Origin: an uncultured Pseudomonadota bacterium
GTDB taxonomy: Bacteria > UBA10199 > JADFYH01
Direction of reading: 5' to 3'
NCBI GenBank assembly: GCA_964384365.1
Contig: CAYLKF010000001.1
Location: 212,079 to 276,078, forward strand
DNA: 64,000 nucleotides
Part shown: positions 1 through 19,885 of the stretch, one piece after another
How the letters are laid out: each line of letters opens with the position of its first letter
Position numbering within the stretch: position 1 is the stretch's first letter
Notes under the pieces: generated by a model
The model's input: the letters and a program-made list of their open reading frames with translations, nothing else
Databases searched by the model: none
What the model was told of the DNA's origin: nothing
Translations under genes and position numbers: made by a program

Positions 1-1257
1 TAAAGAGTGAAAGAAATGTCGTCCCATTCCATTACAACCATCGTCCGTACCTGCGAGCATATAAAAATCAAAATCTTTGGGAGATGTAGAAAAAAGTCGT
101 GGGTCACAATCTGCATTGCGGCTCACAAAATCAGCACTCACAATAGGTTCGCCCGCCGCCGTTTTTGCATCAACCACTTCTTTAGGCACCGTTCCACAAC
201 CACCAGTACCATGATGAAATTTATACCTCCCAGTTCCAGCCTGCCCAACTTTTCCTAATTGAATCAAGTTACGCACCGTATTCCACTGGCTATTCTGGTC
301 GAGCAATCCATTGCGAAGATAAAAATAAAAAACCTTAGAAGCATCGGCAAATTCCATATTCAAACGATACCCTTCGGGTTCAAAACGATGGGTCCAAATA
401 GAACTTGGAAACAGCACCCTGAGTTTTTCAAGAGTATCGGGCAAGCCCCAAGAAACTCGTTCTGCCACGGTAAGATAACTACTTAAGGCCGCACGCCCTA
501 CCCAAGAAAGGCGAATTTCGGCATCGGTATAGTTGGGGGGCGAACCTTTCCAATCTTTGCATCCGCCCGAGTCAACCAAGCGCGCGGCACCTCCCAAAAC
601 ATTCGATGGGTAAAAAACAGGATCTCGCCAATCTTGGCAATTCTCGCGGTTTTTTTCGGGCCCTTCCCAGGGTCGTCGAAATCCAAACTCTTGGCCCCGA
701 TGAAGATTGCGAATGAAATTAAAAAAGGCGCGTTTTTCATCGGGCGTCCAATCATTCCAGAAAACCACCTGTTTAAAATCAGGTTTATTATCTAACCAAG
801 CATTGTACTGGCAAACCCGTTCTCCCAAACTGACTCCACTGAGCACCTCCCGTAACTGCGCCGATAAAAGAGGCGGGCTATCAAATATAAAATCGTAACG
901 ATACGCTCTCTCCGGGCAAGAGTCTTGGCCCCAATAATCTTGTCGCATCTGGTTCATACAGTTCTGAAGGCTCGTTCGGGTACTCTGGTTATTACGCCCG
1001 GAGCTCGCATCATTTGGATTCACGCGTAGAATGGTTTGAGTGCAGGTTCCTTGTAACGAAAGAAGCGAAAGGTAAAAAGCCCTCGCTTGAAGATTTCGAG
1101 CTTGAGCTTGTAAATCGGCAGCCGTCCAATAAATTTTCTTAATATTCTGAAATTGTAAATTTTGAATCGCTGGATTTTGTTGCTGAAACCCCGCTGCATA
1201 AAGATTCACAGTCGAGAAAAAGAAAATGACAAGAAGAATGAAACGAACAAAAAACAT
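1..1257 (-). CDS. Secreted hypothetical protein, 3' end truncated by window edge (at least 419 aa)
   Basis: Manual minus-strand translation from ATG at 1257..1255 (GGAG 4 nt upstream) runs with no stop to position 1. N-terminus MFFVRFILLVIFFFSTVNLYAAG looks like a signal peptide. Absent from the ORF track because no stop codon lies inside the window. Confidence 0.55.
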   Translation of the reverse strand, partial: MFFVRFILLVIFFFSTVNLYAAGFQQQNPAIQNLQFQNIKKIYWTAADLQAQARNLQARAFYLSLLSLQGTCTQTILRVNPNDASSGRNNQSTRTSLQNCMNQMRQDYWGQDSCPERAYRYDFIFDSPPLLSAQLREVLSGVSLGERVCQYNAWLDNKPDFKQVVFWNDWTPDEKRAFFNFIRNLHRGQEFGFRRPWEGPEKNRENCQDWRDPVFYPSNVLGGAARLVDSGGCKDWKGSPPNYTDAEIRLSWVGRAALSSYLTVAERVSWGLPDTLEKLRVLFPSSIWTHRFEPEGYRLNMEFADASKVFYFYLRNGLLDQNSQWNTVRNLIQLGKVGQAGTGRYKFHHGTGGCGTVPKEVVDAKTAAGEPIVSADFVSRNADCDPRLFSTSPKDFDFYMLAGTDDGCNGMGRHFFHSL

Positions 1258-1455
1258 ACTCCGAAAATTATAGCAGGAGCTCCAACCTCTCACGCTTCAA
1301 AAACGACTGAAAAAACAGAAAAAAATTTCTACAAATCTAAACAAGATACTAAAATTTTGAACTTGTTTTGCAGCTTCACTCTTCATTTAAGTTTTGCTAC
1401 GGTGGGGCTCTTTCAGTTTCCTTTTTAAAAACTTATCTACAGCGAGTAAAACAAT

Positions 1456-3690
1456 ATGCTCGATTTCTTCAGAGATATTTTTTCGGCCGACTTCATGCCT
1501 CACGGACACTGCTATTTATGGACGCCTTCTATTCTTTGGTCGATGGTTCTTTCAGATCTCGTCATTACACTGGCCTACTACTCGATTCCCATTTCTTTAA
1601 TTTATTTGGTTCGAAAACGAAAAGACATTCCCTTTGATTGGGTATTTTGGATGTTTGGTGCCTTTATTTTTCTCTGCGGCACAACTCACCTAATGAGTGC
1701 AATAACCACCTGGGAGCCTGCTTATCGACTCGAAGCCCTGATTAAAATCTTAACAGCCTTCATCTCTATTATTACAGCCATTGCCGTTTGGCCCTTGATT
1801 CCTCGTGCCTTGAAAATTCCCAACCTTCAACAACTCCAAAAGATGAAGCTGGAATTGGAAAGAAACGAAAAAAAGTTTCGAGATCTCGTCGAGTCGGCGC
1901 CAGATGCCTTGGTCATGATCAACAAAGAAGGTAAGATTGTCATGGTCAATGAGCAAACCCAAATTTTATTTGGATACGAAAAATCAGAACTCTTGGGAAA
2001 ATTAGTAGAAATCTTGATTCCAGATCGCTTTCACAAAGCTCACCCACAACACCGAAACAGTTTTTTTAACCACCCTATCCGCAGGCCCATGGGCACAGGG
2101 CTTCAACTCTATGCAAAGCGAAAAAATGGCACAGAATTCCCGGTTGAAATCAGCTTGAGCCCTCTAGAAACCGAAGAAGGCCCCCTTGTTACGGCAGCGA
2201 TTCGAGATGTCACAGAACGCAAAAAAATTGAGCAAATGAAGAATGAATTCATTTCAACGGTGAGCCATGAACTTCGAACTCCCCTCACCTCTATTCGAGG
2301 ATCCTTAGGGCTCATCGATGGAGGCTTGGGGGGTGAAATCTCAGAAAAATCTAAGCCCTTGTTAGAGATGGCTATTAACAACTGCGAGCGTTTAGCAAGA
2401 CTCATCAACGACATTCTAGATATTGAAAAAATTGAAGCAGGAAAAATCGAATTTAAGATGGAGGAAATTTCTGTTCAATCTCTCATTAAACAAGCCATTG
2501 CTACAAACGAGTCTTACGCAAAACAATATAAAGTTGAGTTTCTTTTAGAAAAAGAAAGTACTGATCTCTCCGAAGTAAAAATAAAAGGAGATAACGATCG
2601 TTTAATTCAAGTTTTAACAAACTTGCTTTCAAATGCAGCAAAATTTTCACCTCCTCATTCCAAAATACGAACGTCAATTACCAGAAACTCTTCATTCATT
2701 CGCGTGTCTGTGAAAGATGAGGGTTCCGGAATTCCAAAAGAATTTCAAAACCGTATTTTTCAAAAGTTTGCACAAGCAGATTCTTCGAGCACTCGCCAAA
2801 AGGGTGGCACAGGTTTGGGCCTCAGCATCACTAAAAGCATTGTTGAAAAACACCAGGGAACCATTGGCTTTGAACCGAATTTACCACAGGGGACCACTTT
2901 CTATTTTGATATTCCGGAATACGTGTCTCCGAAACCGGTTTCTGCAATTGAAGAAAACTCTCCAAAACCTCGGATACTTATTTGCGAAGACGATGCCGAT
3001 GTTGCGCGTTTATTGCAAATGATGCTCGATCAAGCGGGGTGTCAAAGCGATATTGTTTACACAGCAAAACAAGCCGAAGAATTCTTAGAAAAAACCCCTT
3101 ACGACGCAATGACTCTCGATATTATGCTTCCTGATCAAGATGGAGTTTCTCTGATTCATCAACTTCGAGAAAACCCAAAAACGCGCGAAATCCCAATCAT
3201 TGTAGTTTCTGTGGTGGCTCAAAAAACAAAACAAGAAGTAGAGCTCAAAGGAGATAGCATCAACATCATTGACTGGATTCCAAAGCCTATCTCTCCGCAT
3301 CGTCTTTTCAATGCAATACACACAGCACTTCGAAAGCACAAAGAACCTCATATCCTTTATGTTGAAGACGATACAGATGTGATTCAGGTGATTTCGAGAA
3401 TGTTAGAAAATGTAGCGCAGTTGACGGCTGCTTTCTCTTTGCGAGAGGCCAAAGAGAAAATTCAAAATGAAAAATTTGATTTGATTCTTTTAGATCTTGT
3501 GCTTCCCGATGGAAATGGAATTGAACTACTTCCCTTTTTAAAAACCTCTTCGGGCAGACCAATTCCCGTAGTGATTCTTTCTGCTCAGGAGGTCAATACA
3601 GAAGTCAAAAAACTCGTTGCAGCCACTTTGGTCAAGTCTTTGGCTTCGATAGAAGATATTGTGGGAACTATTCAATCGCTCCTGAAATGA
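1456..3690 (+). CDS. Hybrid sensor histidine kinase: N-terminal membrane domain, PAS, HisKA, HATPase, two receiver domains
   Basis: ATG at 1456. H-box ISTVSHELRTPLTSIRGSL, G-box GGTGLGLSITKSIV, two REC domains with conserved Asp (TLDIMLPDQDG and LILLDLVLPDGNG). N-terminal hydrophobic region with HGHCYLW motif. Confidence 0.9.
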   Translation: MLDFFRDIFSADFMPHGHCYLWTPSILWSMVLSDLVITLAYYSIPISLIYLVRKRKDIPFDWVFWMFGAFIFLCGTTHLMSAITTWEPAYRLEALIKILTAFISIITAIAVWPLIPRALKIPNLQQLQKMKLELERNEKKFRDLVESAPDALVMINKEGKIVMVNEQTQILFGYEKSELLGKLVEILIPDRFHKAHPQHRNSFFNHPIRRPMGTGLQLYAKRKNGTEFPVEISLSPLETEEGPLVTAAIRDVTERKKIEQMKNEFISTVSHELRTPLTSIRGSLGLIDGGLGGEISEKSKPLLEMAINNCERLARLINDILDIEKIEAGKIEFKMEEISVQSLIKQAIATNESYAKQYKVEFLLEKESTDLSEVKIKGDNDRLIQVLTNLLSNAAKFSPPHSKIRTSITRNSSFIRVSVKDEGSGIPKEFQNRIFQKFAQADSSSTRQKGGTGLGLSITKSIVEKHQGTIGFEPNLPQGTTFYFDIPEYVSPKPVSAIEENSPKPRILICEDDADVARLLQMMLDQAGCQSDIVYTAKQAEEFLEKTPYDAMTLDIMLPDQDGVSLIHQLRENPKTREIPIIVVSVVAQKTKQEVELKGDSINIIDWIPKPISPHRLFNAIHTALRKHKEPHILYVEDDTDVIQVISRMLENVAQLTAAFSLREAKEKIQNEKFDLILLDLVLPDGNGIELLPFLKTSSGRPIPVVILSAQEVNTEVKKLVAATLVKSLASIEDIVGTIQSLLK

Positions 3691-3734
3691 AAAAAAGAAG
3701 GGTTAAATTTTTCTGAGTTTTTTTAACACTGAAT

Positions 3735-3823
3735 TACCTCCTCATATCAGGCCCCACCGTTACAAATTCGCCCAAGCTTTCTAAACCTTCTCGAAGATGC
3801 GCGTTTCGCACATGCTCGAAGGT
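3735..3823. repeat. Left direct repeat: orphan copy of the last ~29 codons plus stop of the ABM-family gene at 11537..11818
   Basis: Base-by-base alignment of 3735..3823 with 11538..11626 gives 86/89 identical (mismatches at 3740, 3770, 3796). The minus-strand reading encodes ...FEHVRNAHLREGLESLGEFVTVGPDMRR-stop, but stops lie immediately upstream, so it is a gene fragment. Confidence 0.85.
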
Positions 3824-3860
3824 GGGCTGAGCACTGGGAATGGCATTTATAAAACCAGAT

Positions 3861-6800
3861 CTAATCTAATTTTTGGGTCAATTCACCTGCAATCATCTCC
3901 GCCTGCTTCAACACCATCTCCGTTGCCAAAGCTTGCATATCGGGTGGATAGCCATATTGGCGAAGCGTTCTTTTTACAGCAACTTTGAGTTGGGCACGTA
4001 CGCTTTCTTTGATAGTCCAATCAATCGAAGCGTTTTGGCGGATTTTTTCGGTTAAGACTACCGCCAATTCTCGTAATTTATCTTTGCCTAGAAGTTCTCT
4101 TGCGCTTTGGTTATCTGCAACAGCAGTATAAAAAGCGTATTCGTGATCGGAAAGTCCCAAAGTTTTAGGCTCTTCATCGATTGATTTGATATCTTTCGCA
4201 AGCTTGATCAGTTCTTCAATCACTTCTGCAGCCGTGATAATTTTACTGTGATAGCGCTTGATGGAATCTTCCAGCATTTCCAAAAGATGTTTGCCTTGGA
4301 TCAAATTTTTCTTCAGTCGTACTTTGATTTCGTCATTCAGAATTTTTTTGAGGGTTTCCAGAGCGATATTCTTGTGCTCCATGTTTTTGATTTCGAGCAA
4401 GAATTCTTCCGATAAAATTGAAATATCGGGTTTCTTAATTCCTGCAGCATCGAACACATCTACTACTTGAGTAGAAACTAGGGCTCGATCAATCAATTGC
4501 CGAATGGTTGTTTCCATTTCTTCATCATTTTTACCGGAGCCCGTGCTGTCAAACTTCACCAATCTCGCTTTCACCGCCTGAAAATAGGCGACTTCCTCTT
4601 TGGCATCCATCGCTTGTTCATGCGGAACAGAAATGGCAAAAGCTTTAGAAAGTGCAGTGACTTCATCAATGAATCGTTTCTTCCCTTTTTCTAAGCCCAA
4701 GATATGCTCTTCCGCAGAAAGGATGAGAGAAAGTTTTTGGGAAGTATTGGCTGAAAAATAATTTTCGTAATTAAAACCGGAAAACATTTGAGAAACCACT
4801 TCGAGCTTTTCCAACAGGAGAGCCACTGCTTTTTCTTGAGTGACTGCTGGATCGCCTTTGCCGCCACTATCCGAATAAAACGAGAGAGCTTTTTTCAAAT
4901 CTGAAGCAATCCCCAGATAATCCACTACCAAACCGCCTTTTTTATCTTTATAAACACGATTCACACGTGCAATTGCCTGCATCAAGTTATGACCTTGCAT
5001 CGGCTTATCAATGTATAAAGTATGCAAACAAGGCGCATCGAAACCGGTCAGCCACATATCCCGCACAATCACCAGCTTTAAAGGATCTTCCGGATTTTTG
5101 AGGCGGGAGGCTAAAGTTCTGCGTTGTTCCTTAGTAGTATGATGTTTGGAAAGTTCAGGGCCATCGCTGGAGGCAGCCGTCATCACTACTTTGATGAAAC
5201 CTTTGGAAAGATCTTCGCTCTGCCATTCAGGCCTCAGTTGAATGATGGCATCGTAAAGAGCCACTGCAATCCGGCGAGACATCGCCACAATCATCCCTTT
5301 GCCTTCAAACACTTCTTGGCGAGCTTCAAAATGGCTCACAATATCTTTGGCAATATTTTGGATTCGATGTTCACTTCCAATTAAAGCTTCCAGTTGCGTC
5401 CATTTCGCTTTGGCTTTTTGCATTTCCGATAAATCTTCATCCGACAATTCTTTATCTAATTCTTCGACCAATTTTTTGCCTTCTGAACTTAATTCCACTT
5501 TGGCAAGACGACTTTCATAATAGATGCGAACCGTCGCTTCATCTTCCACCGCTTTGGCAATATCGTAAATATCGACGTAAGCGCCAAACACTGCTGGCGT
5601 GTTGACATCCGTCCCTTCAATAGGCGTTCCCGTAAATCCTAGATAGGTTGCATTCGGCAAAGCATCGCGCATGTATTTAGCAAAACCATAAACGAGCTTT
5701 TGTCCAATCACATTGCCTTGGGCATCTTTTTCATCCACCGTTTTGGGTTTGAAACCATATTGCGTGCGATGGGCTTCATCGGCAATCACGACGATATTAC
5801 TTCGATTGGAAAGCTCCTCATACACATTACCTTCTTCCGGTTGAAACTTTTGAATGGTGGTAAAAACCACGCCACCCGAGGCTACCTTGAGAAGGTTTTT
5901 CAGATCTTTTCTATCTTTGGCCTGAACAGGATCTTGCCTCAGCAGTTGTTTGGAGGCCGCAAAGGTATCAAACAATTGATCATCCAGATCATTGCGATCG
6001 GTAATCACCAGAATAGTAGGATTATTTAAAGCGCGTACAATCTTGCCCGTCGCAAAAACCATGGTGAGCGACTTGCCAGAACCTTGCGTGTGCCAAACCA
6101 CGCCGCCTTTTCGATCTCCTGTTTCAGAACTCGCGCGCAAAACGGAGTCGACTGCTTTATTGACGGCATAATATTGATGATAGGCCGCCACTTTCTTTAC
6201 TGTTTCAATGCTGGTGATACCTGTTTGAGGATCTTCTTTTTTATGTTTCTCAAAGACGATGAAATTTTGAATCAAATCCAAAAGAGTTTTTTTATTCAGC
6301 ATGCCCTGGATTAAAATTTCCAGCTGGCTCACTAGGTGAGAAGCCTCTGCCTTCCCATCCACCGATTTCCACGCCATGAAGCGACTGTAATCCGAAGAAA
6401 TGGTTCCCGTTTTCGCTTCCAATCCATCAGAAATCACCACGAAGCTGTTGTAGGTGAATAAAGAAGGGATGCTGCTTTTATAGGTTCTGAATTGATCAAA
6501 GGCAGATTTAATCGTGGCGTTTTCATCTGCAGGATTTTTGAGTTCGATCACCATGAGCGGCAAACCATTCACGAAGAGAATAATATCCGGACGTTTGTTC
6601 TGGTTGTTTTCGATGACTGTGAATTGATTGACGATGCAGAAATCATTATTCTCCGGATTTTCGAAATCAATTAGCCATACGTAGTCTCCACGTTCTTCAG
6701 AACCTTCACGTACCAATACATTCACGCCTTCGATGAGCATACGGTGAAAACTTTCGTTATTGTTCATTAATTCGGGAGAATGAATGCGTTGAACTTGCCT

Positions 6801-7013
6801 GAATGCTTCTTCACGCGCTTCTTTTGAAACCTTGGGATTGATGCGATCAATGGCTTCTTTGAGTTTATCGATTAAGAGAACGTCCTCAAAATTCGAACGC
6901 AGTGGATTTTTTTCTCCTGCCGCAATTTCAGGACCGTAGAAGTATTGATAACCTTGCTTTTGCAAAAGCTGGATGGAGAATTCTTCGATGTGGGATTCGG
7001 TGAGGAGAGTCAT
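3861..7013 (-). CDS. hsdR: Type I restriction enzyme R subunit (HsdR)
   Basis: Walker A TQGSGKS and DEAH box VVIADEAHR. The track start at 7028 is a TTG; I prefer ATG at 7013..7011, which overlaps the upstream gene's TGA stop (ATGA) and has a G-rich stretch about 7 nt upstream. Confidence 0.9.
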   Translation of the reverse strand: MTLLTESHIEEFSIQLLQKQGYQYFYGPEIAAGEKNPLRSNFEDVLLIDKLKEAIDRINPKVSKEAREEAFRQVQRIHSPELMNNNESFHRMLIEGVNVLVREGSEERGDYVWLIDFENPENNDFCIVNQFTVIENNQNKRPDIILFVNGLPLMVIELKNPADENATIKSAFDQFRTYKSSIPSLFTYNSFVVISDGLEAKTGTISSDYSRFMAWKSVDGKAEASHLVSQLEILIQGMLNKKTLLDLIQNFIVFEKHKKEDPQTGITSIETVKKVAAYHQYYAVNKAVDSVLRASSETGDRKGGVVWHTQGSGKSLTMVFATGKIVRALNNPTILVITDRNDLDDQLFDTFAASKQLLRQDPVQAKDRKDLKNLLKVASGGVVFTTIQKFQPEEGNVYEELSNRSNIVVIADEAHRTQYGFKPKTVDEKDAQGNVIGQKLVYGFAKYMRDALPNATYLGFTGTPIEGTDVNTPAVFGAYVDIYDIAKAVEDEATVRIYYESRLAKVELSSEGKKLVEELDKELSDEDLSEMQKAKAKWTQLEALIGSEHRIQNIAKDIVSHFEARQEVFEGKGMIVAMSRRIAVALYDAIIQLRPEWQSEDLSKGFIKVVMTAASSDGPELSKHHTTKEQRRTLASRLKNPEDPLKLVIVRDMWLTGFDAPCLHTLYIDKPMQGHNLMQAIARVNRVYKDKKGGLVVDYLGIASDLKKALSFYSDSGGKGDPAVTQEKAVALLLEKLEVVSQMFSGFNYENYFSANTSQKLSLILSAEEHILGLEKGKKRFIDEVTALSKAFAISVPHEQAMDAKEEVAYFQAVKARLVKFDSTGSGKNDEEMETTIRQLIDRALVSTQVVDVFDAAGIKKPDISILSEEFLLEIKNMEHKNIALETLKKILNDEIKVRLKKNLIQGKHLLEMLEDSIKRYHSKIITAAEVIEELIKLAKDIKSIDEEPKTLGLSDHEYAFYTAVADNQSARELLGKDKLRELAVVLTEKIRQNASIDWTIKESVRAQLKVAVKRTLRQYGYPPDMQALATEMVLKQAEMIAGELTQKLD

Positions 7014-8053
7014 AACTCTACCCCCCAAATATTTACTGATTTCGCATCAAACAAATTAACCTTACATTTGAATGATGAGTGAATGGATTTTATATGTTTT
7101 ATATCTTTTTCAGAATAAACACCTATATAAACACTCCATAATTTGGAATCTATATCTTGTTTAGATGCTTTGTTGATAGCATCAATAATATGTTTGTCGT
7201 AATCTCCGAAATTAAAACCAAAAGTGATTAATGAACCTTCTATTGAAGAAAGTTTTTTGTAACAAAAATCAAGATATTGATTGTGTAAAATATGAGAAAG
7301 TTTTTGTTCTCCATCTCCTGCTGTTACAAATACAGGGTATTCCTTATTTTCCATTCTTGTTTTAATATTTTTTAACAAATAATTTCCGTCGTAGATTTCC
7401 TTACTTATTGCAGTGCCACTATCAAATAAATGTAATGCACCGTGTAAGTAATGCACATGTTGTTCCGTACGATTATTACCCCATTCGAGATCGCCGGCTT
7501 CAGCCTCGGCATTTTTATCATCTTCATCATTTATGAAATATTCTCTACCGAAACCGTCTATGATGTTGGCAATACCATCTTGCGAACTCATCAAAACCCA
7601 ATAAAGCAACAAATCGTAATTTGTTGTAAATACATGGCCGTCATTATCAAGATACTCCTTAAGAAATGTTGCACAAAGATTTATTCTATTTTGAGGAATT
7701 TTAAAAATATGCTCAGGATGCAACTGAGAAACGGCATCAATTAAATTTTTCTTTAATGACTCGCTAGCGGCCTTTATTGTACTAGCTAAATTTTGATCTT
7801 TAGAAAACTCAGTGGCGAGTGCGCAAAACACGTCAAGCTCCCTCATGATTTGTTCAAAATTGTATGTTTTAATTATATCAAAAAGTTTCTTTAAAAACTT
7901 ATTATCCGTTTTAAGAAGAAAATCACTTAGGGCGTTATACGAAAATATGGCTTTATCATAAGCCATACTGAAACCATTACCTAACAGTAAGTGTTTAGCT
8001 CTTTTTTTCTTATTCAAATAATTAATAATGTCAGAATACTTTTTAAGCTCCAT
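7010..8053 (-). CDS. SIR2-like (ThsA / SIR2_2 / DUF4917-type) putative NAD+-consuming effector
   Basis: Four motifs in the canonical order: Gly-rich loop LLLGNGFSMAY, FTTNYDLL, HYLHGALH, ITFGFNFGDYD, matching the ThsA SIR2 motifs GAGxS / TTNYD / HGD / GFSFxD as I recall them. Sampled lines give about 25-33% G+C, lower than hsdR. Confidence 0.6.
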   Translation of the reverse strand: MELKKYSDIINYLNKKKRAKHLLLGNGFSMAYDKAIFSYNALSDFLLKTDNKFLKKLFDIIKTYNFEQIMRELDVFCALATEFSKDQNLASTIKAASESLKKNLIDAVSQLHPEHIFKIPQNRINLCATFLKEYLDNDGHVFTTNYDLLLYWVLMSSQDGIANIIDGFGREYFINDEDDKNAEAEAGDLEWGNNRTEQHVHYLHGALHLFDSGTAISKEIYDGNYLLKNIKTRMENKEYPVFVTAGDGEQKLSHILHNQYLDFCYKKLSSIEGSLITFGFNFGDYDKHIIDAINKASKQDIDSKLWSVYIGVYSEKDIKHIKSIHSSFKCKVNLFDAKSVNIWGVEL

Positions 8054-8054
8054 G

Positions 8055-8702
8055 TTATTCTGTCTCTACATTAAACATCTTACATTCAACCGCATAAGCT
8101 CGTGGATCTATGTTATAAAGTATTTCACTAGCTAGATACGAATATTCTCCCATTACAAACTCACCAAATGAATCATCCCAAAATTCATTAAAATCTGAAT
8201 TGTCTTGGTATTCAGAAATTTTCTCCTCAGTTTGTGCTACAGTTGTAAGGGGTGATGATGTTTCAAATCCTCTAATTAATAAAGAAGCCACAATTTCAGT
8301 GGAATCGATCAAAAATTCTTTTGCTAAATGATCAATTTTATTGTTCCTATTTTTTAATTCCTCAATAGTCATACCATGAGAAGTTGAGCCAATATCGTTA
8401 CGTAAATTTCCCATCTGCTGGCCAATAGTTGCCAGAGATCTTGAAATTTGATTGACGAGTTCTTCGCTTTTATAACCAATGGCTATAAAAGCACTTTTCA
8501 AAACCGCATTCATATTTGAGGTGTTTGGCAAGGTAACATCTTTAATTTTACAAATTTCCTTCCCTATCGTTTCAAGAAGAGCTTTTGCATTTTCAAGTGA
8601 TAAGCTGAAATCAGTTTCAGCATATGCTTCTATGCGGCTTACAAAAACCTCAATATCTTTCCATCTCCCGTGTTGCTCTATGACAGCTTTTAGTTTCTGC
8701 AT
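8055..8702 (-). CDS. Hypothetical 215-aa protein, partner of the SIR2-like gene; acidic/aromatic C-terminal tail
   Basis: ATG overlaps the hsdS stop (TAATG); its stop lies 1 nt before the SIR2-like ATG. No catalytic motif recognised. C-terminus EYQDNSDFNEFWDDSFGEFVMGEY is acidic and aromatic-rich. Confidence 0.6.
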   Translation of the reverse strand: MQKLKAVIEQHGRWKDIEVFVSRIEAYAETDFSLSLENAKALLETIGKEICKIKDVTLPNTSNMNAVLKSAFIAIGYKSEELVNQISRSLATIGQQMGNLRNDIGSTSHGMTIEELKNRNNKIDHLAKEFLIDSTEIVASLLIRGFETSSPLTTVAQTEEKISEYQDNSDFNEFWDDSFGEFVMGEYSYLASEILYNIDPRAYAVECKMFNVETE

Positions 8703-9928
8703 TAGAGTGCTTCCTCTTCATACTTCACCCTCACCTCACCACTCATCAGTTTAGGTAAAAGAGTGTCGCGAAGTTTTTCTAAATTTCTTATTTGTTGGTG
8801 ATTCGAATCAATTTTTTCCCAGGCATTTTCGGTAAAATTACAAAAAGTATGTAGGATCTCTTTTGAAGGTAATTGAAACTCAACAGTTTCAATGTCAGAT
8901 GGTTTTAGAGATGGATAAGTAGAAGTTGAAGCTTCAGCAATTGTGCTTAGATATTCCGTCATTTCATTCTGAGTAAGGAGATAATAAATAAAATGCGGAT
9001 TAATAGCACTGCAAGTGAGTACGCAAAAACCAGTTGAAACAACTAAGTTATTAGGCGGATTTTTAATAAATCCATAATGTTTATGATTAGGCCTGACTGT
9101 TGAAACGATAATATCATTATGTTGAACTAACCTTTTGGCCCGACTAGGAGAATCTTTTAGGGAATAAATTTCAAATTTTTCAATTTTCCCTTCTGTAATA
9201 GAACCAGTATCCAAATATTTAATAATTTCGTAAGGATGATCCGTCCTGAGTGTAGAAATATTAGTTTTTGCAATGTCACCTATAGTAATATTTGGCCAAC
9301 TTGGATTAGCCTCCTCCACAAACCACTGCCGAAAAAGTGTTTCAGCAATAGCTTCTAGGGTTTTGTTTTGGCGGTGGAGGAGGTCAATTTTGTCATCCAG
9401 GCTGGAGAGAATTTCGGCGATGGCTTTTTGTTCGGGGAGAGGTGGTAAAAAAAATGCATAATTTTTTATTGCCGTTGGAGAAGTATGTTTTATTGATGTT
9501 CCAGATGATGCGCTGACAATATATTGTTGATACTCTCTAGTTCGCATTAACCAATAAATAAATTCTCTATCCGTATTATTATTATTATTATTATTTTTAA
9601 ATTTAACTAAACCAACTCGTTGATTATGGAGAAAAATGACACCTTCCATATAAGGTATCTTTGCTGTATACCCTAAAGTATCACCGTCTTTACTTAAATC
9701 GGTCATAGTAACAATAATGTCGTCTGGTGTAAGAATATATTCTTTTGGAAAATCAGAGGATGAAAAATACTTAAACTTATCCTGCTTAAACCCACCCCCA
9801 ATATGAAAGTTTCCAGGGGTAACTAGAATTTTATCTGTTTTTTCTTGAGTTATATATTTTCCCTTAAAAGCATAACCATGCTTTATATCTATGACTTCAC
9901 CTAATGTTGTTTCTTCCCACTCACCCAT
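8702..9928 (-). CDS. hsdS: Type I restriction-modification specificity subunit (HsdS), two target-recognition domains
   Basis: Conserved central region LPPLPEQKAIAEIL...LLHRQN and C-terminal repeat LPSKEIL...LEKLRDTLLPKLMSGEV. Start overlaps the hsdM stop by 8 nt. Confidence 0.9.
   Translation of the reverse strand: MGEWEETTLGEVIDIKHGYAFKGKYITQEKTDKILVTPGNFHIGGGFKQDKFKYFSSSDFPKEYILTPDDIIVTMTDLSKDGDTLGYTAKIPYMEGVIFLHNQRVGLVKFKNNNNNNNTDREFIYWLMRTREYQQYIVSASSGTSIKHTSPTAIKNYAFFLPPLPEQKAIAEILSSLDDKIDLLHRQNKTLEAIAETLFRQWFVEEANPSWPNITIGDIAKTNISTLRTDHPYEIIKYLDTGSITEGKIEKFEIYSLKDSPSRAKRLVQHNDIIVSTVRPNHKHYGFIKNPPNNLVVSTGFCVLTCSAINPHFIYYLLTQNEMTEYLSTIAEASTSTYPSLKPSDIETVEFQLPSKEILHTFCNFTENAWEKIDSNHQQIRNLEKLRDTLLPKLMSGEVRVKYEEEAL
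9577..9597 (-). repeat. (AAT)7 trinucleotide repeat inside hsdS encoding a poly-Asn run
   Basis: Plus strand reads (ATT)x7; minus-strand translation ...KFKNNNNNNNTDREF in the first target-recognition domain. Confidence 0.85.
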
Positions 9929-11438
9929 TCAAAACCACCTTCGCTAAATTCTCTAAAATACGTTCATTGAGCTTAACTTCTTCTTTCATCTGAGCTTCCA
10001 ACTCCGCTTTGAGAACGGTAAAGCGTTCTGCAAAATTGAAATCATCTTCAATATCTTCCAAGCCCACATAGCGGCCTGGGGTCAGCACATAATCCAACTC
10101 CTGCACACGCTGGATGCTAGCTGAATTGCAGAATCCTTTTATGTCTTGATATCCATCGTCTTCCGATCGCCAGTTATGATAAGTTTGAGCAATTTTTTGG
10201 ATGTCTTCGTGAGAAAATTCTTTTGTGCGTCGATTGATGAGATGGCCGAGGTTACGGGCATCGATAAATAGAATTTCTTCCCGGCGATAGGTTTTGCCAC
10301 GTCGCAAAAACCATAAAGAAGCGGGGATTTGCGTATTCAGAAACAATTTGGCGGGCAAGTTAACGATGCAATCCACTAAGCGAGCTTCGATCAGTGCTTT
10401 GCGGATTTCGCCTTCGCCGGAGGATTTAGAAGTAAGCGCCCCTTTCGCCATGACAAAACCGGCATGGCCACTCGGAGATAAATGATAGAGGAAATGTTGA
10501 ATCCAGGCATAGTTGGCATTGCCACTGGGAGGAACGCCATATTTCCAGCGACCATCATTGCGGAGCAAATCACCGCTCCAGTCGCTATCATTAAAGGGAG
10601 GATTCGCGATGATGAAATCAGCTTTTAGATCTTTATGCGTATCGTTAAGAAAAGAACCTTCGTTGTTCCATTTCACTTGTGAGCTATCAATACCACGGAT
10701 GGCAAGATTCATTTTCGCCAAGCGCCAAGTGGTTTGATTGCTTTCTTGACCATAAATGGAAATATCGTTGATGCGGCCTTGTCGAGCTTCCACAAATTTT
10801 TCGGATTGAACAAACATTCCCCCTGAACCGCAGCAGGGGTCAAAGACTCGGCCTTTATAGGGCTCCAACATTTCTACCAGTAATTGCACAATAGAGCGAG
10901 GCGTATAGAACTGTCCCCCTTGTTTACCTTCTGCTAATGCGAATTCACCCAGAAAATATTCAAACACATGCCCCAGTATATCGGCACTGCGGGCTTTACT
11001 TTGTTCAATATCGATATTGCTAAATTCATCGATGAGTTTGCCTAAGTTGGCAGAATCTAAATTTCCTCGGGCAAAAACTTTTGGGAGGACTCCTTTGAGG
11101 GAAGGATTATCGCGCTCGATAGCATCCATTGCAGCATCGATGTCTTTTCCTATCTCTGGCAGCTTGGCCCGTGACTGCAAGTAGTTCCAACGCGCGGAAG
11201 GAGGCACAAAAAAAACATTCTTGGCTTTGTATTCGTCACGATCTTCCGGGTCGGCTCCCGCGAACTCTCCTTCGCCTTTTTTGAGTTGTTCATAAATTTC
11301 TTCAAAGGAACTTGAAATATATTTTAGAAAAACCAACCCCAAGACGACATGCTTGTATTCTGCCGCATCAATGTTTTTGCGAAGTTTATCCGCCGCTTCC
11401 CAAAGTTTTTTTTCTAATGATTCAATTTTTGAAGTCAT
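9921..11438 (-). CDS. hsdM: Type I restriction-modification N6-adenine DNA methyltransferase (HsdM)
   Basis: Motif I DPCCGSGGMF and motif IV FIIANPPFN. ATG at 11438..11436 with AGAGGGAG just upstream. Confidence 0.92.
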   Translation of the reverse strand: MTSKIESLEKKLWEAADKLRKNIDAAEYKHVVLGLVFLKYISSSFEEIYEQLKKGEGEFAGADPEDRDEYKAKNVFFVPPSARWNYLQSRAKLPEIGKDIDAAMDAIERDNPSLKGVLPKVFARGNLDSANLGKLIDEFSNIDIEQSKARSADILGHVFEYFLGEFALAEGKQGGQFYTPRSIVQLLVEMLEPYKGRVFDPCCGSGGMFVQSEKFVEARQGRINDISIYGQESNQTTWRLAKMNLAIRGIDSSQVKWNNEGSFLNDTHKDLKADFIIANPPFNDSDWSGDLLRNDGRWKYGVPPSGNANYAWIQHFLYHLSPSGHAGFVMAKGALTSKSSGEGEIRKALIEARLVDCIVNLPAKLFLNTQIPASLWFLRRGKTYRREEILFIDARNLGHLINRRTKEFSHEDIQKIAQTYHNWRSEDDGYQDIKGFCNSASIQRVQELDYVLTPGRYVGLEDIEDDFNFAERFTVLKAELEAQMKEEVKLNERILENLAKVVLNG

Positions 11439-11536
11439 GCTCCCTCTTTATTAAAAGAAAAATCACTCATTTTTGGAATGAGGAATTTCTACTAAAGCTC
11501 CAAGCTTTGAAAAGAAAGATCTATTTTCTCTGATCA

Positions 11537-11818
11537 CTACCTTCTCATATCAGGCCCCACCGTTACAAATTCACCCAAGCTTTCTAAACCTTCTCGAATA
11601 TGCGCGTTTCGCACATGCTCGAAGGTAACTTGGGCGCCCCACTCTTCGATAAAATTAAACTGATAAGTTTCGCTTGGATTTTGTTGAAATTCAAAACCCA
11701 AACATCCCGCACTTTTTAAAGCCGCAGCAATGGTGATACTCAAAAAATTCTTCATCGCTTCTTCTTGACCCGGCAAGGCTTTATAAAGTGAAATCATCCT
11801 CACAGTTTTACGGCGCAT
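11537..11818 (-). CDS. Antibiotic-biosynthesis-monooxygenase (ABM) family protein
   Basis: About 93 aa with an ABM-like pattern (ISLYKALPGQEEA...GCLGFEF...FIEEWGAQVTFEHVRNAH). The track start is a TTG at 11830; first ATG at 11818 has GGAG 6 nt upstream. Its 3' end is the right direct repeat. Confidence 0.6.
   Translation of the reverse strand: MRRKTVRMISLYKALPGQEEAMKNFLSITIAAALKSAGCLGFEFQQNPSETYQFNFIEEWGAQVTFEHVRNAHIREGLESLGEFVTVGPDMRR
11538..11626. repeat. Right direct repeat (the intact 3' end of the ABM gene)
   Basis: 86/89 identity to 3735..3823. Confidence 0.85.
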
Positions 11819-11850
11819 TTTTTTCTCCAATTTACAAAATTAATTTTGAT

Positions 11851-11882
11851 AAAAAAAGGCCCTACAGAATTTCTGTAGGGCC
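11851..11882 (-). terminator. Intrinsic terminator 3 nt downstream of tRNA-Leu
   Basis: 10-bp perfect stem GGCCCTACAG / CTGTAGGGCC with 5-nt loop; the plus-strand A-run 11851..11857 is the U-tract on the minus strand. Confidence 0.7.
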
Positions 11883-11884
11883 AG

Positions 11885-11970
11885 TGCCCGAGGCCGGAAT
11901 CGAACCGGCACGACCGTTTCCAGTCACAGGATTTTAAGTCCTGTGTGTCTACCAATTCCACCACTCGGGC
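11885..11970 (-). tRNA. tRNA-Leu (anticodon UAA), long variable arm
   Basis: Cloverleaf folded by hand: acceptor GCCCGAG/CTCGGGC, anticodon stem CAGGA/TCCTG with loop CTTAAAA, T-stem GCCGG/CCGGC with loop TTCGATT, discriminator A. Confidence 0.85.
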
Positions 11971-12005
11971 TAGCAGATCATTCGTATTAAACGAATGATC
12001 TGCTA
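11971..12005. repeat. 15-bp perfect-stem hairpin abutting the 5' end of tRNA-Leu
   Basis: TAGCAGATCATTCGT - ATTAA - ACGAATGATCTGCTA. No U-tract, so not a canonical terminator. Confidence 0.7.
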
Positions 12006-12038
12006 GGATTTAGTAACTAGTAATTAGTTTTTAGGGGG

Positions 12039-12404
12039 TCAACTTTTATCTTCTAGATTTTTAATTAATCCGCTAAGCATTTTGGAAATTTCAACACATT
12101 CTTGTCGAAATATTTTATATTGCTCCGACGAAATGGATTGAAGATCCAGTCCAAGTTCTAAAAGGGGCACACACTCATAAGTTGATCCTCTTGCTATAGT
12201 GTAAAAATTTTTCTTTTCTTTTAAAGACTCTCTCCCCCCACCTTCTGCTATGTTTAAAGTAATACTCATCGAAGCCCTGCGAAGTTGATCACACCACGAA
12301 AAATTATTTTTTGAAAATGGGCTTATTACTTTTATTATTTGTTTAGAAAAAACAAGCGCCCTCTGATAAACATGTAACTTTTCAAATGAGAACTGTTCGT
12401 CCAT
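12039..12404 (-). CDS. Four-helix-bundle protein (23S rRNA intervening-sequence protein / Avd-like family)
   Basis: Family-typical pattern LHVYQRALVF...DQLRRASMSITLNIAEGGGRES...FYTIARGSTYEC. Confidence 0.8.
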   Translation of the reverse strand: MDEQFSFEKLHVYQRALVFSKQIIKVISPFSKNNFSWCDQLRRASMSITLNIAEGGGRESLKEKKNFYTIARGSTYECVPLLELGLDLQSISSEQYKIFRQECVEISKMLSGLIKNLEDKS

Positions 12405-12438
12405 ATCCCTATCTACTTAAAACTTAACCCTTAATACT

Positions 12439-12470
12439 AAAAAAACTTCCCCGTTAAGGGGAAGTTTTTT
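12439..12470. terminator. Bidirectional intrinsic terminator immediately downstream of tRNA-Cys
   Basis: 8-bp stem ACTTCCCC / GGGGAAGT, loop GTTAA, A-run on one side and T-run on the other. Confidence 0.7.
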
Positions 12471-17845: not shown

Positions 17846-19885
17846 TTATTCCATTTTGAAAACCGGCGTGCGAATCGGCGCAATCGTAAATCCAAAAGTG
17901 AAACTTTGACCCGGTGCCAGATTTTTCTGCCAACTGGGCAACTGCATCGTGGTTTGGTTTGCCGTTTTCGAAATCAAATCGACACTCCACGGCGAAAAAC
18001 CATTTCCTACATTCGCTGAAAATCGCAATCCGCTGAAGGTTGTAGATTTTGTCGTATTCTTGAGCACTGCCTTCATGTTGGCGCCACTCCAAGCTTCTCC
18101 CCTGCCCCACTCAGAATCGATTGAGAGCGTCAAGGTTAAGCCCGACGCAAGATTCTGCACCATTGATCCTTCTGTAGGATTCTGAGGGGGAGAAGGATCC
18201 GGTGCGGGGCTCGGAGCAGGGCTAGGTGGAGCAAGCTCTGTGGCGTTTTGCAAACTGAACGACGGCGTACTCAAAGGAGTCACTGTAAAACCAAAGGTAT
18301 AAGTTTCTCCAGGATCTAACGTGTTGTTGTAAGAGGGTAAACCTACCACGGTTTCAGAAGCGGTTTTCTGAACAGGATCCATACTCCAAATATTAATTCC
18401 ATTTCCTTGATTCGCTTTAATTTGAATTTGATTAAAAGTTTTGGAACTACTCATATTTTTAAGGGTGGCTTTATAAGTCGCTCCACTCCAGGGCTCCCCT
18501 TGGCCCCAAGAATTATCGACAACAAGTTGTAATTGAAAATCGGGCGAGATTGTTTGTGTTAAAGATCCGGGTGTTGGTGCAGGAGCAGGAGCTGGGCTGG
18601 GTGTTGGTGTTGGAGTTGGTGTTGGAGTCGGCGTTGGTGTAGGAGCGGGAGTAGGTGTTGGCGTAGGGCTTGGTGTGGGTGTAGGAGTGGGTGTAGGAGC
18701 AGGTGGAGGATTCCCATACAAAGTTTGAGAAACCAAAGAAGTTAAAGCATATTGATCATCGAGATCAATCGCCCAAATCATGGCTCCGCCCAGTTGTTTA
18801 TTCGTTAAATAATTCAATTTGCGGGTAATCGATTCCGAATCGTCGTAACTAATCCAATTTCCCCTTCCATCGTAGGCATAAGGCGTATCGGTATTTGAGT
18901 CCCACATACGCTGATATTGGCCACTATTCACGAGCTGCTCAATTTCATAATAAGCCATGAAACCGGCTTCTTGAGTGCAAGTGCCTCGCGGCGGATTCGG
19001 ACTCCACGGATTGGTGATCGTACTATTAGGCAGATTGGCCGAAGCGCTGCCAAAGCTTCTTCCATAAAACGGAATTCCTAAAATCAATTTCGACGAAGGC
19101 ACTCCCGCGTTGAGATAAAGATTCACAGTATAATCGATGTAAAAATGCCCATTGGGCACGGAGTCGTGCATCAAGGGCGAGTTGACTCCCGTTTTTGAAT
19201 CCCAACTTCCATGAAAATCGTAAGTCATGAGATTGATAAAATCGAGATAAGGATGAATCAAAGAAAGCTCGTAATTGGCAATGTGCGCTTCGCCCGCAGG
19301 AGCTGCGATTGTAAGCAAAAGCTTTTCTTTTCCGGCAGGAACCCGCTCGGCATCAATGGCTTGCCGAAATTCTTTGAGCAAGGCCGTAAAATTTTTCTTA
19401 TCTTGAGAAGTTCCAGAATGCTCTGCGAATCCGGGGTATTCCCAATCGAGATCAATTCCATCAAATCCGTAAGTTCGGGCATAAGTCATGGCTGAATTAA
19501 TAAAAGTTGCCCGCCGAGCAGAGCTTGAAGCCATCGCAGGAAAGGCATCACTTAAAGTCCAGCCCCCAATTGAAATCAAAGTTTTTAAATGGGGATACTG
19601 TTGTTTGAGGCTATTCAACTGCTCATACAAACCCGGAGAACCGCTGCTGATGTCATTCCACTCAACGGGTTGCACTTGATCACCCGCTCCAATTTTTGCA
19701 AAGGCATAATTGATATGCGTAAAATATTCGGGCCGGACATTGGCAGGAGTGAACTTGCATTGACCCGGCCGGTATTGAGCCCAATTGGTGAAATAGCCAA
19801 CAACTCGTGGAGTGGTATCGGCTCGCACTTCCAGAGAGAAGGCTAAAAGGAGAAATCCCAAAATCAACCGACTCAAGGCTTTCAT
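17846..19885 (-). CDS. Secreted GH18 chitinase with Pro/Thr linkers and two C-terminal CBM2-like modules
   Basis: Signal peptide, catalytic motif [11 protein letters not shown], long PT-repeat linker, two about 100-aa Trp-containing modules ([11 protein letters not shown]... and [11 protein letters not shown]...). Confidence 0.88.

What the first reader, a model, noticed from the sequence alone, without database searches (positions are those of the whole stretch)
3735..11626. R-M/SIR2 locus bracketed by 89-bp direct repeats that duplicate the 3' end of an ABM-family gene
Base-by-base alignment: 3735..3823 matches 11538..11626 at 86 of 89 positions. The right copy is the intact 3' end of the ABM gene (including its TAG stop); the left copy is an orphan fragment with stops immediately upstream. 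This is the signature of an insertion or cassette exchange at the 3' end of the ABM gene, and recombination between the repeats could excise the 7.7-kb locus. No integrase or transposase is present, so movement may depend on homologous recombination or a factor encoded elsewhere.
Basis: seen in the sequence. Interest (0 to 1): 0.75.

Follow-up and report, generated by a model that had tools for sequence, protein, structure and literature searches.

The report
Restriction island inserted with 89-bp target duplication
A 7.7-kb phage-defence gene cluster (a type I restriction-modification system with two extra defence genes) was inserted at the very end of a small host gene, duplicating that gene's last 89 bases on both sides; a related genome still has the unoccupied site, and this way of inserting restriction genes has been described before.

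Summary
Window 3735-3823 and 11538-11626 are a direct repeat, 86/89 identical, with sharp ends and no third copy. The repeat is the last 29 codons plus "TA" of the stop codon of a 93-aa ABM-fold gene (11537-11818, minus strand). Between the copies lie 7,714 bp holding one tightly packed operon: hsdM, hsdS, an Abi_C gene, a DUF4917/SIR2-like gene (PADLOC candidate PDC-S21) and hsdR.

In the closest related genome found (L002, a 418-kb JGI contig; also L003), the ABM gene is followed after 37 nt by the convergent histidine-kinase gene. Both window copies align to that single target.

No integrase or transposase was found in the island or in any scanned ORF of 150 aa or more in the window. The island has no terminal inverted repeats. 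Both junctions appear in a second assembly.

The locus meets every criterion of "R-M insertion with long target duplication" (Nobusato 2000; Furuta, Abe and Kobayashi 2010). That class includes repeats that span a stop codon and leave the target gene intact. The main rival is a decayed, integrase-less integrative element (CIME-like).

Verdict: real, correctly read, and a new member of a known kind. Excision through the repeats is plausible but not shown.

The parts
3735..3823 (-). Left repeat copy. It is an orphan 3' fragment of the ABM gene (codons 65-93 plus TA; its own stop TAA is at 3734-3736). It is contiguous with the native spacer and the kinase gene.
   Evidence: 86/89 identical to 11538-11626. 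It lies inside one alignment of window 4-3823 with L002 14006-10193. It has no start codon and an in-frame TAG at 3866-3868.
3824..11537 (-). Inserted DNA (7,714 bp), absent from the related genomes L002 and L003. It consists of a 98-nt leader, a five-gene operon and a 37-nt tail.
   Evidence: No counterpart in L002 or L003. GC is 39.3% against 42.9% for the window, and 31-34% in the middle three genes. No terminal inverted repeats.
3861..7013 (-). hsdR, the type I restriction subunit (1050 aa from the ATG at 7013).
   Evidence: Pfam HSDR_N, SWI2_SNF2, T1R_D3-like and T1RH-like_C. PADLOC REase_I at 1313 bits. TIGR00348 at 638 bits.
7010..8053 (-). DUF4917 / SIR2-like gene embedded in the hsd operon (PADLOC candidate defence gene PDC-S21).
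   Evidence: Pfam DUF4917 7e-44 and SIR2_2 3.9e-6. PDC-S21 1e-109. The nearest relative elsewhere is 72% identical.
8055..8702 (-). Abi_C-domain gene (215 aa) embedded in the hsd operon.
   Evidence: Pfam Abi_C 2.7e-7, 31 bits against a cutoff of 24. Homologues at 52-59% identity sit between hsdS and hsdR in at least nine related hsd loci.
8702..9928 (-). hsdS, the specificity subunit, with two target-recognition domains.
   Evidence: Pfam Methylase_S in two stretches. PADLOC Specificity_I 8e-100 over the full length.
9921..11438 (-). hsdM, the type I methyltransferase subunit.
   Evidence: Pfam HsdM_N and N6_Mtase 8.8e-111. PADLOC MTase_I 8e-197.
11538..11626 (-). Right repeat copy. It is the working 3' end of the ABM gene. 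The stop codon TAG is completed by the first base of the inserted DNA (11537).
11537..11818 (-). The target gene: an intact 93-aa ABM-fold (dimeric alpha-beta barrel) gene.
   Evidence: Pfam ABM 3.4e-4, 21.2 bits, just under the cutoff of 23.1. Homologues P0004 and P0005 carry PF03992. A family profile hits the solved chain PA3566 (1x7v) at 1e-8 and three other solved chains of about 100-120 residues, deposited as conserved or hypothetical proteins. That these chains are ABM-fold is my recollection; the output does not say it. 92% identical to L002's protein.
1456..3690 (+). Hybrid histidine kinase, the native convergent neighbour of the ABM gene.
   Evidence: Pfam ETR1_N, PAS, HisKA, HATPase_c and two REC domains. 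It lies directly next to ABM in L002.
11884..11970 (-). tRNA-Leu(taa) just upstream of the ABM gene, followed by a strong terminator hairpin at 11858-11882. In L002 this tRNA is the attachment site of an integrase island.

Best explanation
Foreign DNA carrying a complete type I R-M operon (hsdM-hsdS-Abi_C-DUF4917-hsdR) was inserted once into this lineage, after it split from the L002 lineage. The insertion point is the junction between the ABM stop codon and its downstream spacer. The event duplicated 89 bp of the target in place: ABM codons 65-93 plus TA.

One copy stays fused to the ABM 5' part, so the gene remains intact. Its stop codon is rebuilt as TA plus G from the insert. The other copy is left as a dead fragment between hsdR and the native spacer and kinase gene. 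This is the 'insertion with long target duplication' described for R-M genes.

The way the duplication arose is inferred, not shown. The most likely route is two breaks or nicks 89 bp apart (or joins to two sister copies), repaired around the incoming DNA without a dedicated recombinase.

Three consequences are also inferred. The operon probably reads through from the ABM promoter, because no terminator and no sigma-70-like promoter lie in the 98-nt leader. It probably ends at the native ABM terminator region. RecA recombination between the repeats could delete the island precisely, or release a 7,803-bp circle, at low frequency.
For: - The target is single-copy in the relative. L002 10193-10280 aligns to both window copies. 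Flanks are collinear at 82.8% (kinase side) and 91.5% (ABM/tRNA side).
- The repeat has sharp ends, with no extended homology on either side.
- Both copies carry this lineage's own alleles. They share three differences from L002 and differ from each other at three fast-evolving sites: left vs L002 4, right vs L002 5, left vs right 3. The ABM subfamily is rare, with 5 homologues among 5.8 billion proteins and no hit in 185,579 species genomes. The island proteins have no relative at 90% identity or more anywhere, and the nearest are 72-82% identical and spread across phyla including archaea. An in-place duplication needs no pre-existing homology on the incoming DNA.
- The insert contains only the operon plus 98 nt and 37 nt. 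It has no integrase, transposase or terminal inverted repeats. None was found in the scanned ORFs of the rest of the window either.
- All the criteria of Furuta et al. 2010 are met. [quoted passage not shown]
- Both junctions are confirmed in a second assembly.
Against: - The duplication ends exactly at the stop codon, and its first 39 nt form an imperfect palindrome. Both features are also what an attachment site at a gene's 3' end looks like.
- The neighbouring tRNA-Leu in L002 hosts a classical integrase island.
- A related hsd-DUF4917 operon rides on an integrase element with 95-nt repeats in Solitalea agri.
- The molecular mechanism of long target duplication has never been demonstrated for any member of the class.
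- Only one occupied lineage and one empty lineage are available.
- Polarised by L002, two of the three post-duplication changes fall in the selected copy and one in the neutral copy. This is not what simple decay predicts, though the counts are tiny.
Confidence: 0.55

Rival explanations
1. The island is a decayed or non-autonomous integrative element, like the cis-mobilizable elements (CIMEs) of streptococci or the e14 and phage 21 integration into icd. A tyrosine or serine recombinase integrated a circular element whose attachment site mimics the last 89 bp of the ABM gene. The repeats would then be attL and attR. The recombinase gene has since been deleted or is encoded elsewhere and acts in trans.
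For: - The repeat coincides with the 3' end of a gene and restores it, stop codon included.
- The repeat starts with a 39-nt imperfect palindrome and folds stably, z = -3.2.
- A neighbouring classical case exists in L002: 56-bp tRNA-Leu repeats with an integrase.
- The same HsdR family, with a DUF4917 gene, lies inside an 18.7-kb integrase element with 95-nt repeats in L027.
- CIMEs of 1.2-13 kb at 3' ends of protein genes are common (PMC7563491).
Against: - There is no integrase or remnant. Only 98 nt and 37 nt of non-coding DNA lie inside the repeats, which leaves little room for recombinase arm sites.
- Two separate clean deletions would be needed to trim an L027-like element down to the operon.
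- No other element was found at an ABM 3' end in any ABM-bearing contig.
- The incoming attachment site would have had to match a rare, clade-restricted gene at 97%, while the cargo has no close relative anywhere.
Confidence: 0.27
2. The island arrived by Campbell-type homologous recombination. A circle (or a transformed fragment that circularised) carrying the island and one 89-bp ABM copy had popped out of a conspecific donor through its own repeats. It then recombined with the resident ABM 3' end. This explains spread within the species, but not how the first duplication arose.
For: - Both copies are nearly identical to this lineage's own sequence.
- The SNP pattern fits a crossover in the first 26 nt of the repeat: the right copy is non-L002-like at two downstream sites, and the left copy is L002-like there.
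- A cycle of amplification and release through flanking repeats was hypothesised for R-M units (PMC2853133).
Against: - 89 bp is a short substrate for RecA.
- No donor, circle or second occupied strain is known.
- The island proteins occur in a single genome.
- The SNP pattern is equally compatible with an in-place duplication followed by three substitutions.
Confidence: 0.13
3. The structure is an artefact: an assembly chimera joined through a shared sequence, or a chance similarity.
For: The window comes from a metagenome-type assembly, and repeats can cause misjoins.
Against: - The chance probability is about 1e-38.
- Each junction is reproduced at 100% identity in the Logan contigs L094 and L001.
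- The copies share no exact block longer than 29 nt, and they differ at three positions, so they are two real loci.
Confidence: 0.02

Closest known systems
R-M gene insertion with long target duplication (Nobusato et al. 2000, Gene 259:99, cited from memory and as ref. 37 of the next paper; Furuta, Abe and Kobayashi 2010, NAR 38:2428, PMC2853133)
   Same: R and M genes form the insert. The insert is under 20 kb, the duplicated target is over 30 bp, and no mobility genes are present. A related genome holds the target once. The repeat spans the stop site so the target gene survives. One published type I case (H. influenzae NTHI0188-0193) also has extra genes inside the hsd cluster.
   Different: The 89-bp duplication is about twice the 46-47 bp of the table rows I read. 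The host is an uncultured lineage of unknown competence. The embedded genes are Abi_C and DUF4917/PDC-S21. The duplicated segment is bounded by inverted hexamers (ACCTTC...GAAGGT), a feature I did not see discussed in the parts of the paper I read.
Cis-mobilizable elements (CIMEs) and other integrase-less remnants of ICEs and IMEs at the 3' ends of protein genes (PMC7563491)
   Same: A cargo-only island of a few kb, flanked by direct repeats that duplicate the 3' end of a protein-coding gene. It has no recombinase of its own.
   Different: CIMEs are recognised through att sites shared with intact ICEs or IMEs at the same site. No such element is known for the ABM site. There is very little non-coding DNA inside the repeats, and no sign of a decayed recombination or transfer module.
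e14 and phage 21 integration into the icd gene of E. coli (from my own knowledge, not checked here)
   Same: Integration into the 3' part of a protein gene. The gene is kept intact by one copy of its 3' end, and a displaced orphan 3' fragment is left at the far side of the element.
   Different: Those elements encode their own integrase and carry a diverged replacement 3' end. Here there is no integrase, and the two copies are 97% identical.
Type I R-M operons with embedded defence genes (prrC in EcoprrI, from memory; TgvAB in Vibrio cholerae VPI-2, PMC11411939)
   Same: Extra defence genes lie between hsdS and hsdR within one operon.
   Different: Here the embedded genes are an Abi_C-domain protein and a DUF4917/SIR2-like protein. 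Their function and any cooperation with the R-M system are untested.

Membership tests
R-M insertion with long target duplication (criteria of Furuta et al. 2010) | The inserted segment contains both R and M gene homologues. | tested here: met
   hsdR, hsdM and hsdS are all full length.
R-M insertion with long target duplication (criteria of Furuta et al. 2010) | The insert is shorter than 20 kb. | tested here: met
   7,714 bp lie between the repeat copies. The start-to-start spacing is 7,803 bp.
R-M insertion with long target duplication (criteria of Furuta et al. 2010) | Direct duplication of a target longer than 30 bp, present once at the empty site of a related genome. | tested here: met
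   89 bp, 86/89 identical. L002 10193-10280 and L003 carry it once, with collinear flanks.
R-M insertion with long target duplication (criteria of Furuta et al. 2010) | No integrase, transposase or other mobility gene in or next to the unit, and the repeat is not a multicopy element or tRNA. | tested here: met
   No such Pfam or NCBIfam hit in the island or in the scanned ORFs of 150 aa or more in the 64-kb window. There are only two copies in the window. The repeat is protein-coding, not a tRNA. The rest of the genome could not be examined.
Site-specific integrative element (integrase island, ICE/IME/CIME) | A recombinase gene inside the element. For a CIME: att sites shared with intact elements at the same site. 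| tested here: not met
   No recombinase in the island. None of the ABM-bearing contigs examined (L002-L010, L013, L095-L097) has an element at the ABM 3' end. The sample is small.
Site-specific integrative element (integrase island, ICE/IME/CIME) | Direct repeats that duplicate the 3' end of the target gene and restore it. | tested here: met
   The repeat is ABM codons 65-93 plus TA of the stop. The gene is intact.
Site-specific integrative element (integrase island, ICE/IME/CIME) | Excision to a circular form and a restored attB. | not testable with these tools
   No reads are available. Exact-protein look-ups found only the occupied-site contigs in sample SRR8893623.
Transposon-like R-M unit (terminal inverted repeats plus short target duplication; Furuta et al. 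2010) | Terminal inverted repeats at the ends of the insert. | tested here: not met
   The 80-nt ends aligned in inverted orientation score no better than shuffles, p = 0.80. No such pair appears.
Type I restriction-modification system | HsdM, HsdS (two target-recognition domains) and HsdR present as intact genes in one cluster. | tested here: met
   Enzymatic activity was not tested.
DUF4917 / SIR2-like candidate defence gene (PADLOC PDC-S21) | Full-length match to the family profile above the curated cutoff. | tested here: met
   DUF4917 at 150.9 bits against a cutoff of 28. PDC-S21 at 1e-109 over residues 1-343. Anti-phage function was not tested.
ABM (antibiotic biosynthesis monooxygenase-like) fold, the target gene | Match to Pfam PF03992 above the gathering score. 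| tested here: inconclusive
   21.2 bits against a cutoff of 23.1 for the window protein. Homologues P0004 and P0005 carry PF03992. The family profile hits the solved chain 1x7v at 1e-8.

The most novel reading that the evidence does not exclude
The two ends of the duplicated 89-bp target are inverted copies of one hexamer (5'-ACCTTC on each strand), and the first 39 nt form a palindrome. If this is not coincidence, it marks where a sequence- or structure-specific nuclease made two staggered nicks 89 nt apart. That would be the first mechanistic clue to how R-M units insert with long target duplications, a process described in 2000 and never explained.
Probability: 0.07. Interest if true: 0.7.

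Novelty: new member of a known kind. Interest (0 to 1): 0.33.

Why it matters
It is a clean natural example of a defence island that has no mobility genes and entered a chromosome without damaging the target gene. Occupied and empty sites were both recovered, and both junctions were confirmed in a second assembly. It extends the "long target duplication" class to an uncultured lineage and to a type I system carrying Abi_C and DUF4917/SIR2-like passengers.

It lies within about 10 kb of two other differences between the two genomes: an integrase island at tRNA-Leu in the relative, and a small four-helix-bundle gene between two tRNAs here. It is therefore a compact illustration of a variable defence hotspot.

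It does not change what is known. The insertion mechanism remains as open as it was, and this uncultured organism is a poor system in which to test it.

Tried and rejected
- **Extended homology beyond the 89 bp.** MAFFT suggested weak similarity between the 98-nt leader and the native spacer and kinase 3' end, and between the 37-nt tail and the upstream ABM codons. Local alignment against 2,000 shuffles gave p = 0.14 and p = 0.50. Rejected.
- **Terminal inverted repeats of the insert.** None, p = 0.80.
- **The ABM 3' end as a recurrent attachment site.** A degenerate 32-nt pattern for the conserved C-terminus found nothing in 185,579 species genomes and one metagenome contig, L013, which has no duplication. 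In the P0004 lineage the strain-variable junction lies about 70 nt downstream of the stop, not at it. L004, L095, L096 and L097 have other neighbours and no duplicate.
- **Unusual nucleotide-level conservation of the 89 bp.** This would hint at an RNA or DNA element. Synonymous sites vary freely in L004 and L005. Rejected.
- **XerCD/dif-type (IMEX) integration.** By eye, a 'GCGCATA' heptamer resembles the XerC arm of E. coli dif as I recall it, but no XerD-arm-like sequence follows it, and such elements have 28-bp sites. Not pursued.
- **Donor search.** Island proteins are singletons at 90% clustering. The nearest HsdR is 76% identical and the nearest DUF4917 72%, in many phyla. No donor was identified.
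- **Bracketing repeats around 49 related hsd loci.** Only L027, L032, L019 and L035 have single pairs, all far from the operon. L029 has many pairs that look like dispersed repeats. L027's pair belongs to an integrase element.
- **Organism name.** Source names were truncated or absent, and a paper search for the sample ids found nothing. The taxon stays undetermined. The type II secretion genes suggest a diderm bacterium (my inference). The nearest PurH outside its own 90% cluster is 77% identical.

Full report
**1. The observation.** Window 3735-3823 and 11538-11626 align without gaps at 86 of 89 positions. The three mismatches are at 3740/11543, 3770/11573 and 3796/11599, which leaves exact blocks of 5, 29, 25 and 27 nt. 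The chance of such a pair anywhere in 64 kb is about 1e-38. It is the only long direct repeat in the first 20 kb, and there is no third copy in the window.

The ends of the repeat are sharp. The sequences just outside the copies show no significant similarity to each other (p = 0.14 and p = 0.50 against shuffles).

**2. Anatomy.** Everything between the copies is on the minus strand and forms one tightly packed operon, with overlaps or gaps of a few bases at most:
- hsdM, 9921-11438
- hsdS, 8702-9928
- a 215-aa Abi_C-domain gene, 8055-8702
- a 347-aa DUF4917/SIR2_2 gene, 7010-8053
- hsdR, 3861-7013

The assignments rest on Pfam, PADLOC (REase_I, Specificity_I and MTase_I; the DUF4917 protein is candidate PDC-S21, 1e-109) and NCBIfam.

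The right copy is the last 29 codons plus the 'TA' of the TAG stop of an intact 93-aa gene at 11537-11818. This gene scores just under the Pfam ABM cutoff. Two homologues, P0004 and P0005, carry PF03992. The family profile hits four solved chains of about 100-120 residues, the best being PA3566 (1x7v) at 1e-8. The output gives only their deposited names, so their being ABM-fold is my recollection.

Upstream of it lie a strong terminator hairpin (11858-11882), tRNA-Leu(taa), a 23S-rRNA-IVP-family gene, tRNA-Cys and hpt.

The left copy sits 37 nt past the hsdR stop. It has its own TAA, an in-frame TAG 14 codons upstream of the repeat and no start codon. About 44 nt further on is the stop of a convergent hybrid histidine kinase (1456-3690).

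**3. The empty site.** The ABM protein has only five homologues among 5.8 billion proteins. The closest (92%) lies on a 418-kb JGI contig, L002. There the ABM gene is followed after 37 nt by the convergent orthologous kinase gene. A short second contig, L003, shows the same arrangement.

BLAST gives window 4-3823 = L002 14006-10193 (82.8% identity) and window 11539-11940 = L002 10280-9880 (91.5%). L002 nt 10193-10280 is therefore matched by both window copies and is present there once. The 7,714 bp at 3824-11537 are an insertion in the window lineage, with an 89-bp duplication of the target. The base that completes the ABM stop codon (G of TAG, 11537) belongs to the insert.

**4. Not an artefact.** Two Logan contigs from run SRR8893623 reproduce each junction at 100% identity. 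L094 covers window 1-4378 (kinase, left repeat, hsdR 3' end). L001 covers 8066-11956 (Abi_C gene to tRNA-Leu). The two copies share no exact block longer than 29 nt.

**5. No mobility genes.** There is no integrase, transposase, resolvase or relaxase hit in the island or in any scanned ORF of 150 aa or more in the window. The rest of the window is ordinary chromosome: fumarase, AddAB-like nucleases, GlnE, GshA, PurD, PurH, Alr, ThiG, ThiC and a type II secretion cluster. The insert has no terminal inverted repeats.

**6. Origin of the cargo.**
- Each island protein is a singleton at 90% clustering among about 15 billion proteins.
- The nearest DUF4917 is 72% identical.
- The nearest HsdR proteins are 71-76% identical and spread over Bacteroidota, Proteobacteria, Spirochaetes, Methanosarcinales and others.
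- In those 80 loci the distance between hsdS and hsdR varies from zero to several kb. Abi_C homologues (52-59%) sit there in at least nine loci, and DUF4917 in a few.
- GC is 44% in hsdM and 43% in hsdR, but 31-34% in hsdS, Abi_C and DUF4917.

Together these suggest a widely exchanged hsd frame with a swappable middle. Extra defence genes embedded in type I operons have precedents, such as TgvAB in V. cholerae (PMC11411939).

**7. Which mechanism.** Two readings fit the architecture.

*(a) In-place long target duplication.* Both copies carry this lineage's alleles. They share three differences from L002 and differ from each other at three fast-evolving sites: left vs L002 4, right vs L002 5, left vs right 3. 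The target gene family is tiny and clade-restricted. The cargo is foreign and has no close relatives. The insert contains nothing but the operon. An in-place duplication needs no homology on the incoming DNA.

The locus meets every criterion that Furuta, Abe and Kobayashi used for 'insertion with long target duplication': R and M in the insert, under 20 kb, a duplication over 30 bp, no mobility genes, and an empty site in a relative. Those authors report type I cases with embedded genes. [quoted passage not shown]

*(b) An integrase-less remnant of a site-specific element (CIME-like; PMC7563491).* Three things favour this:
- The repeat coincides with the gene's 3' end, and its first 39 nt form an imperfect palindrome (fold z = -3.2).
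- In L002 the tRNA-Leu about 65 nt upstream of ABM carries a classical 8.46-kb integrase island with perfect 56-bp repeats.
- In Solitalea agri (L027) an hsdM-hsdS-DUF4917-hsdR operon of the same family lies in an 18.7-kb integrase element with 95-nt repeats.

Against it:
- There is no recombinase or remnant.
- Only 98 nt and 37 nt of non-coding DNA lie inside the repeats.
- No other element was found at an ABM 3' end.

I put (a) at about 0.55 and (b) at about 0.27. A Campbell-type homologous entry from a conspecific donor gets about 0.13; it would explain spread but not origin.

**8. Function and consequences (inferred).** No terminator and no sigma-70-like promoter were detected in the 98-nt leader. 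The operon is therefore probably transcribed by read-through from the ABM gene. It probably terminates in the native ABM-kinase spacer, after the orphan fragment.

Recombination between the repeats could delete the island precisely and restore an L002-like site. The exact blocks of 25-29 nt are near the lower limit for RecA-dependent exchange in E. coli (from my own knowledge). Exact-protein look-ups found only occupied-site contigs in the sample. Excision remains a possibility, not a finding.

**9. An unexplained detail.** In gene orientation the duplicated segment begins ACCTTC and ends GAAGGT(A), so each strand starts with the same hexamer. Only 0.15% of random 89-mers from the window do this, allowing one base of slack at each end. 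The hexamer occurs 55 times in the window, and one copy is already mutated (ACCTCC in the left repeat). It could hint at staggered nicks, but I treat it as probably coincidental.

**10. Verdict.** It should be filed under a described phenomenon, as a new member of the class 'R-M insertion with long target duplication', with a CIME-like remnant as the serious alternative. Interest is modest: it is a tidy example, not a surprise.

Noticed in passing
L002 1388-9935 (related genome); the corresponding window site is 11849-11970: In the relative that lacks the R-M island, tRNA-Leu(taa) carries an 8.46-kb island flanked by perfect 56-bp repeats of the tRNA 3' end (1418-1473 and 9880-9935). The island holds a tyrosine integrase, a Toprim/AAA_25 primase-like gene, an HTH regulator, and DnaJ- and NYN-domain genes. 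The window has no such island. Two different islands therefore occupy neighbouring sites about 65 nt apart in sister genomes.
   Followed up: partly
window 11971-12469: A 23S_rRNA_IVP (four-helix-bundle) gene (12039-12404) lies between tRNA-Cys and tRNA-Leu. L002 has only 131 nt between the two tRNAs. This is a third insertion/deletion difference within this 10-kb neighbourhood.
   Followed up: partly
window about 9575-9595 (inside hsdS): An in-frame (AAT)6 tract encodes six consecutive Asn in the first target-recognition domain of HsdS. It is a possible length-variable simple repeat.
   Followed up: no
window 11538-11626 and 3735-3823: The duplicated 89-mer is bounded by inverted hexamers (ACCTTC...GAAGGT). 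Its first 39 nt (gene orientation) form an imperfect palindrome. The ABM 3' region folds with z = -3.2. The palindrome is partly kept in L004 but not in L005.
   Followed up: partly
window 32377-33795 and 33847-34989: Two adjacent ORFs each carry GlnE plus GlnD_UR_UTase domains. The glutamine synthetase adenylyltransferase appears to be split into two genes, or interrupted, rather than being one roughly 950-aa protein.
   Followed up: no
window 18570-18707 (inside the GH18 chitinase gene, 17846-19885, minus strand): A tandem 12/18-nt periodic repeat lies within the chitinase gene. By position it may fall in a linker between the catalytic domain and the CBM49/CBM_2 domains. I did not translate it or check the domain boundaries.
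   Followed up: no
L027 4087-22927 (Solitalea agri NZ_JAMWYS010000003.1): An hsdM-hsdS-DUF4917-hsdR operon of the same HsdR family lies in an 18.7-kb element with a tyrosine integrase, DUF3987, DUF6371 and Peptidase_M78 genes. The element is flanked by 95-nt direct repeats (98% identical). This shows one vehicle by which this R-M family moves.
   Followed up: partly
L005 10353 vs L008 1175 (a more distant ABM lineage): Strains with the identical ABM protein P0004 differ by a roughly 2-kb insertion/deletion (a TIG-domain gene) that starts about 70 nt downstream of the ABM stop. The region downstream of this gene is variable there too, but the break is not at the stop codon.
   Followed up: partly
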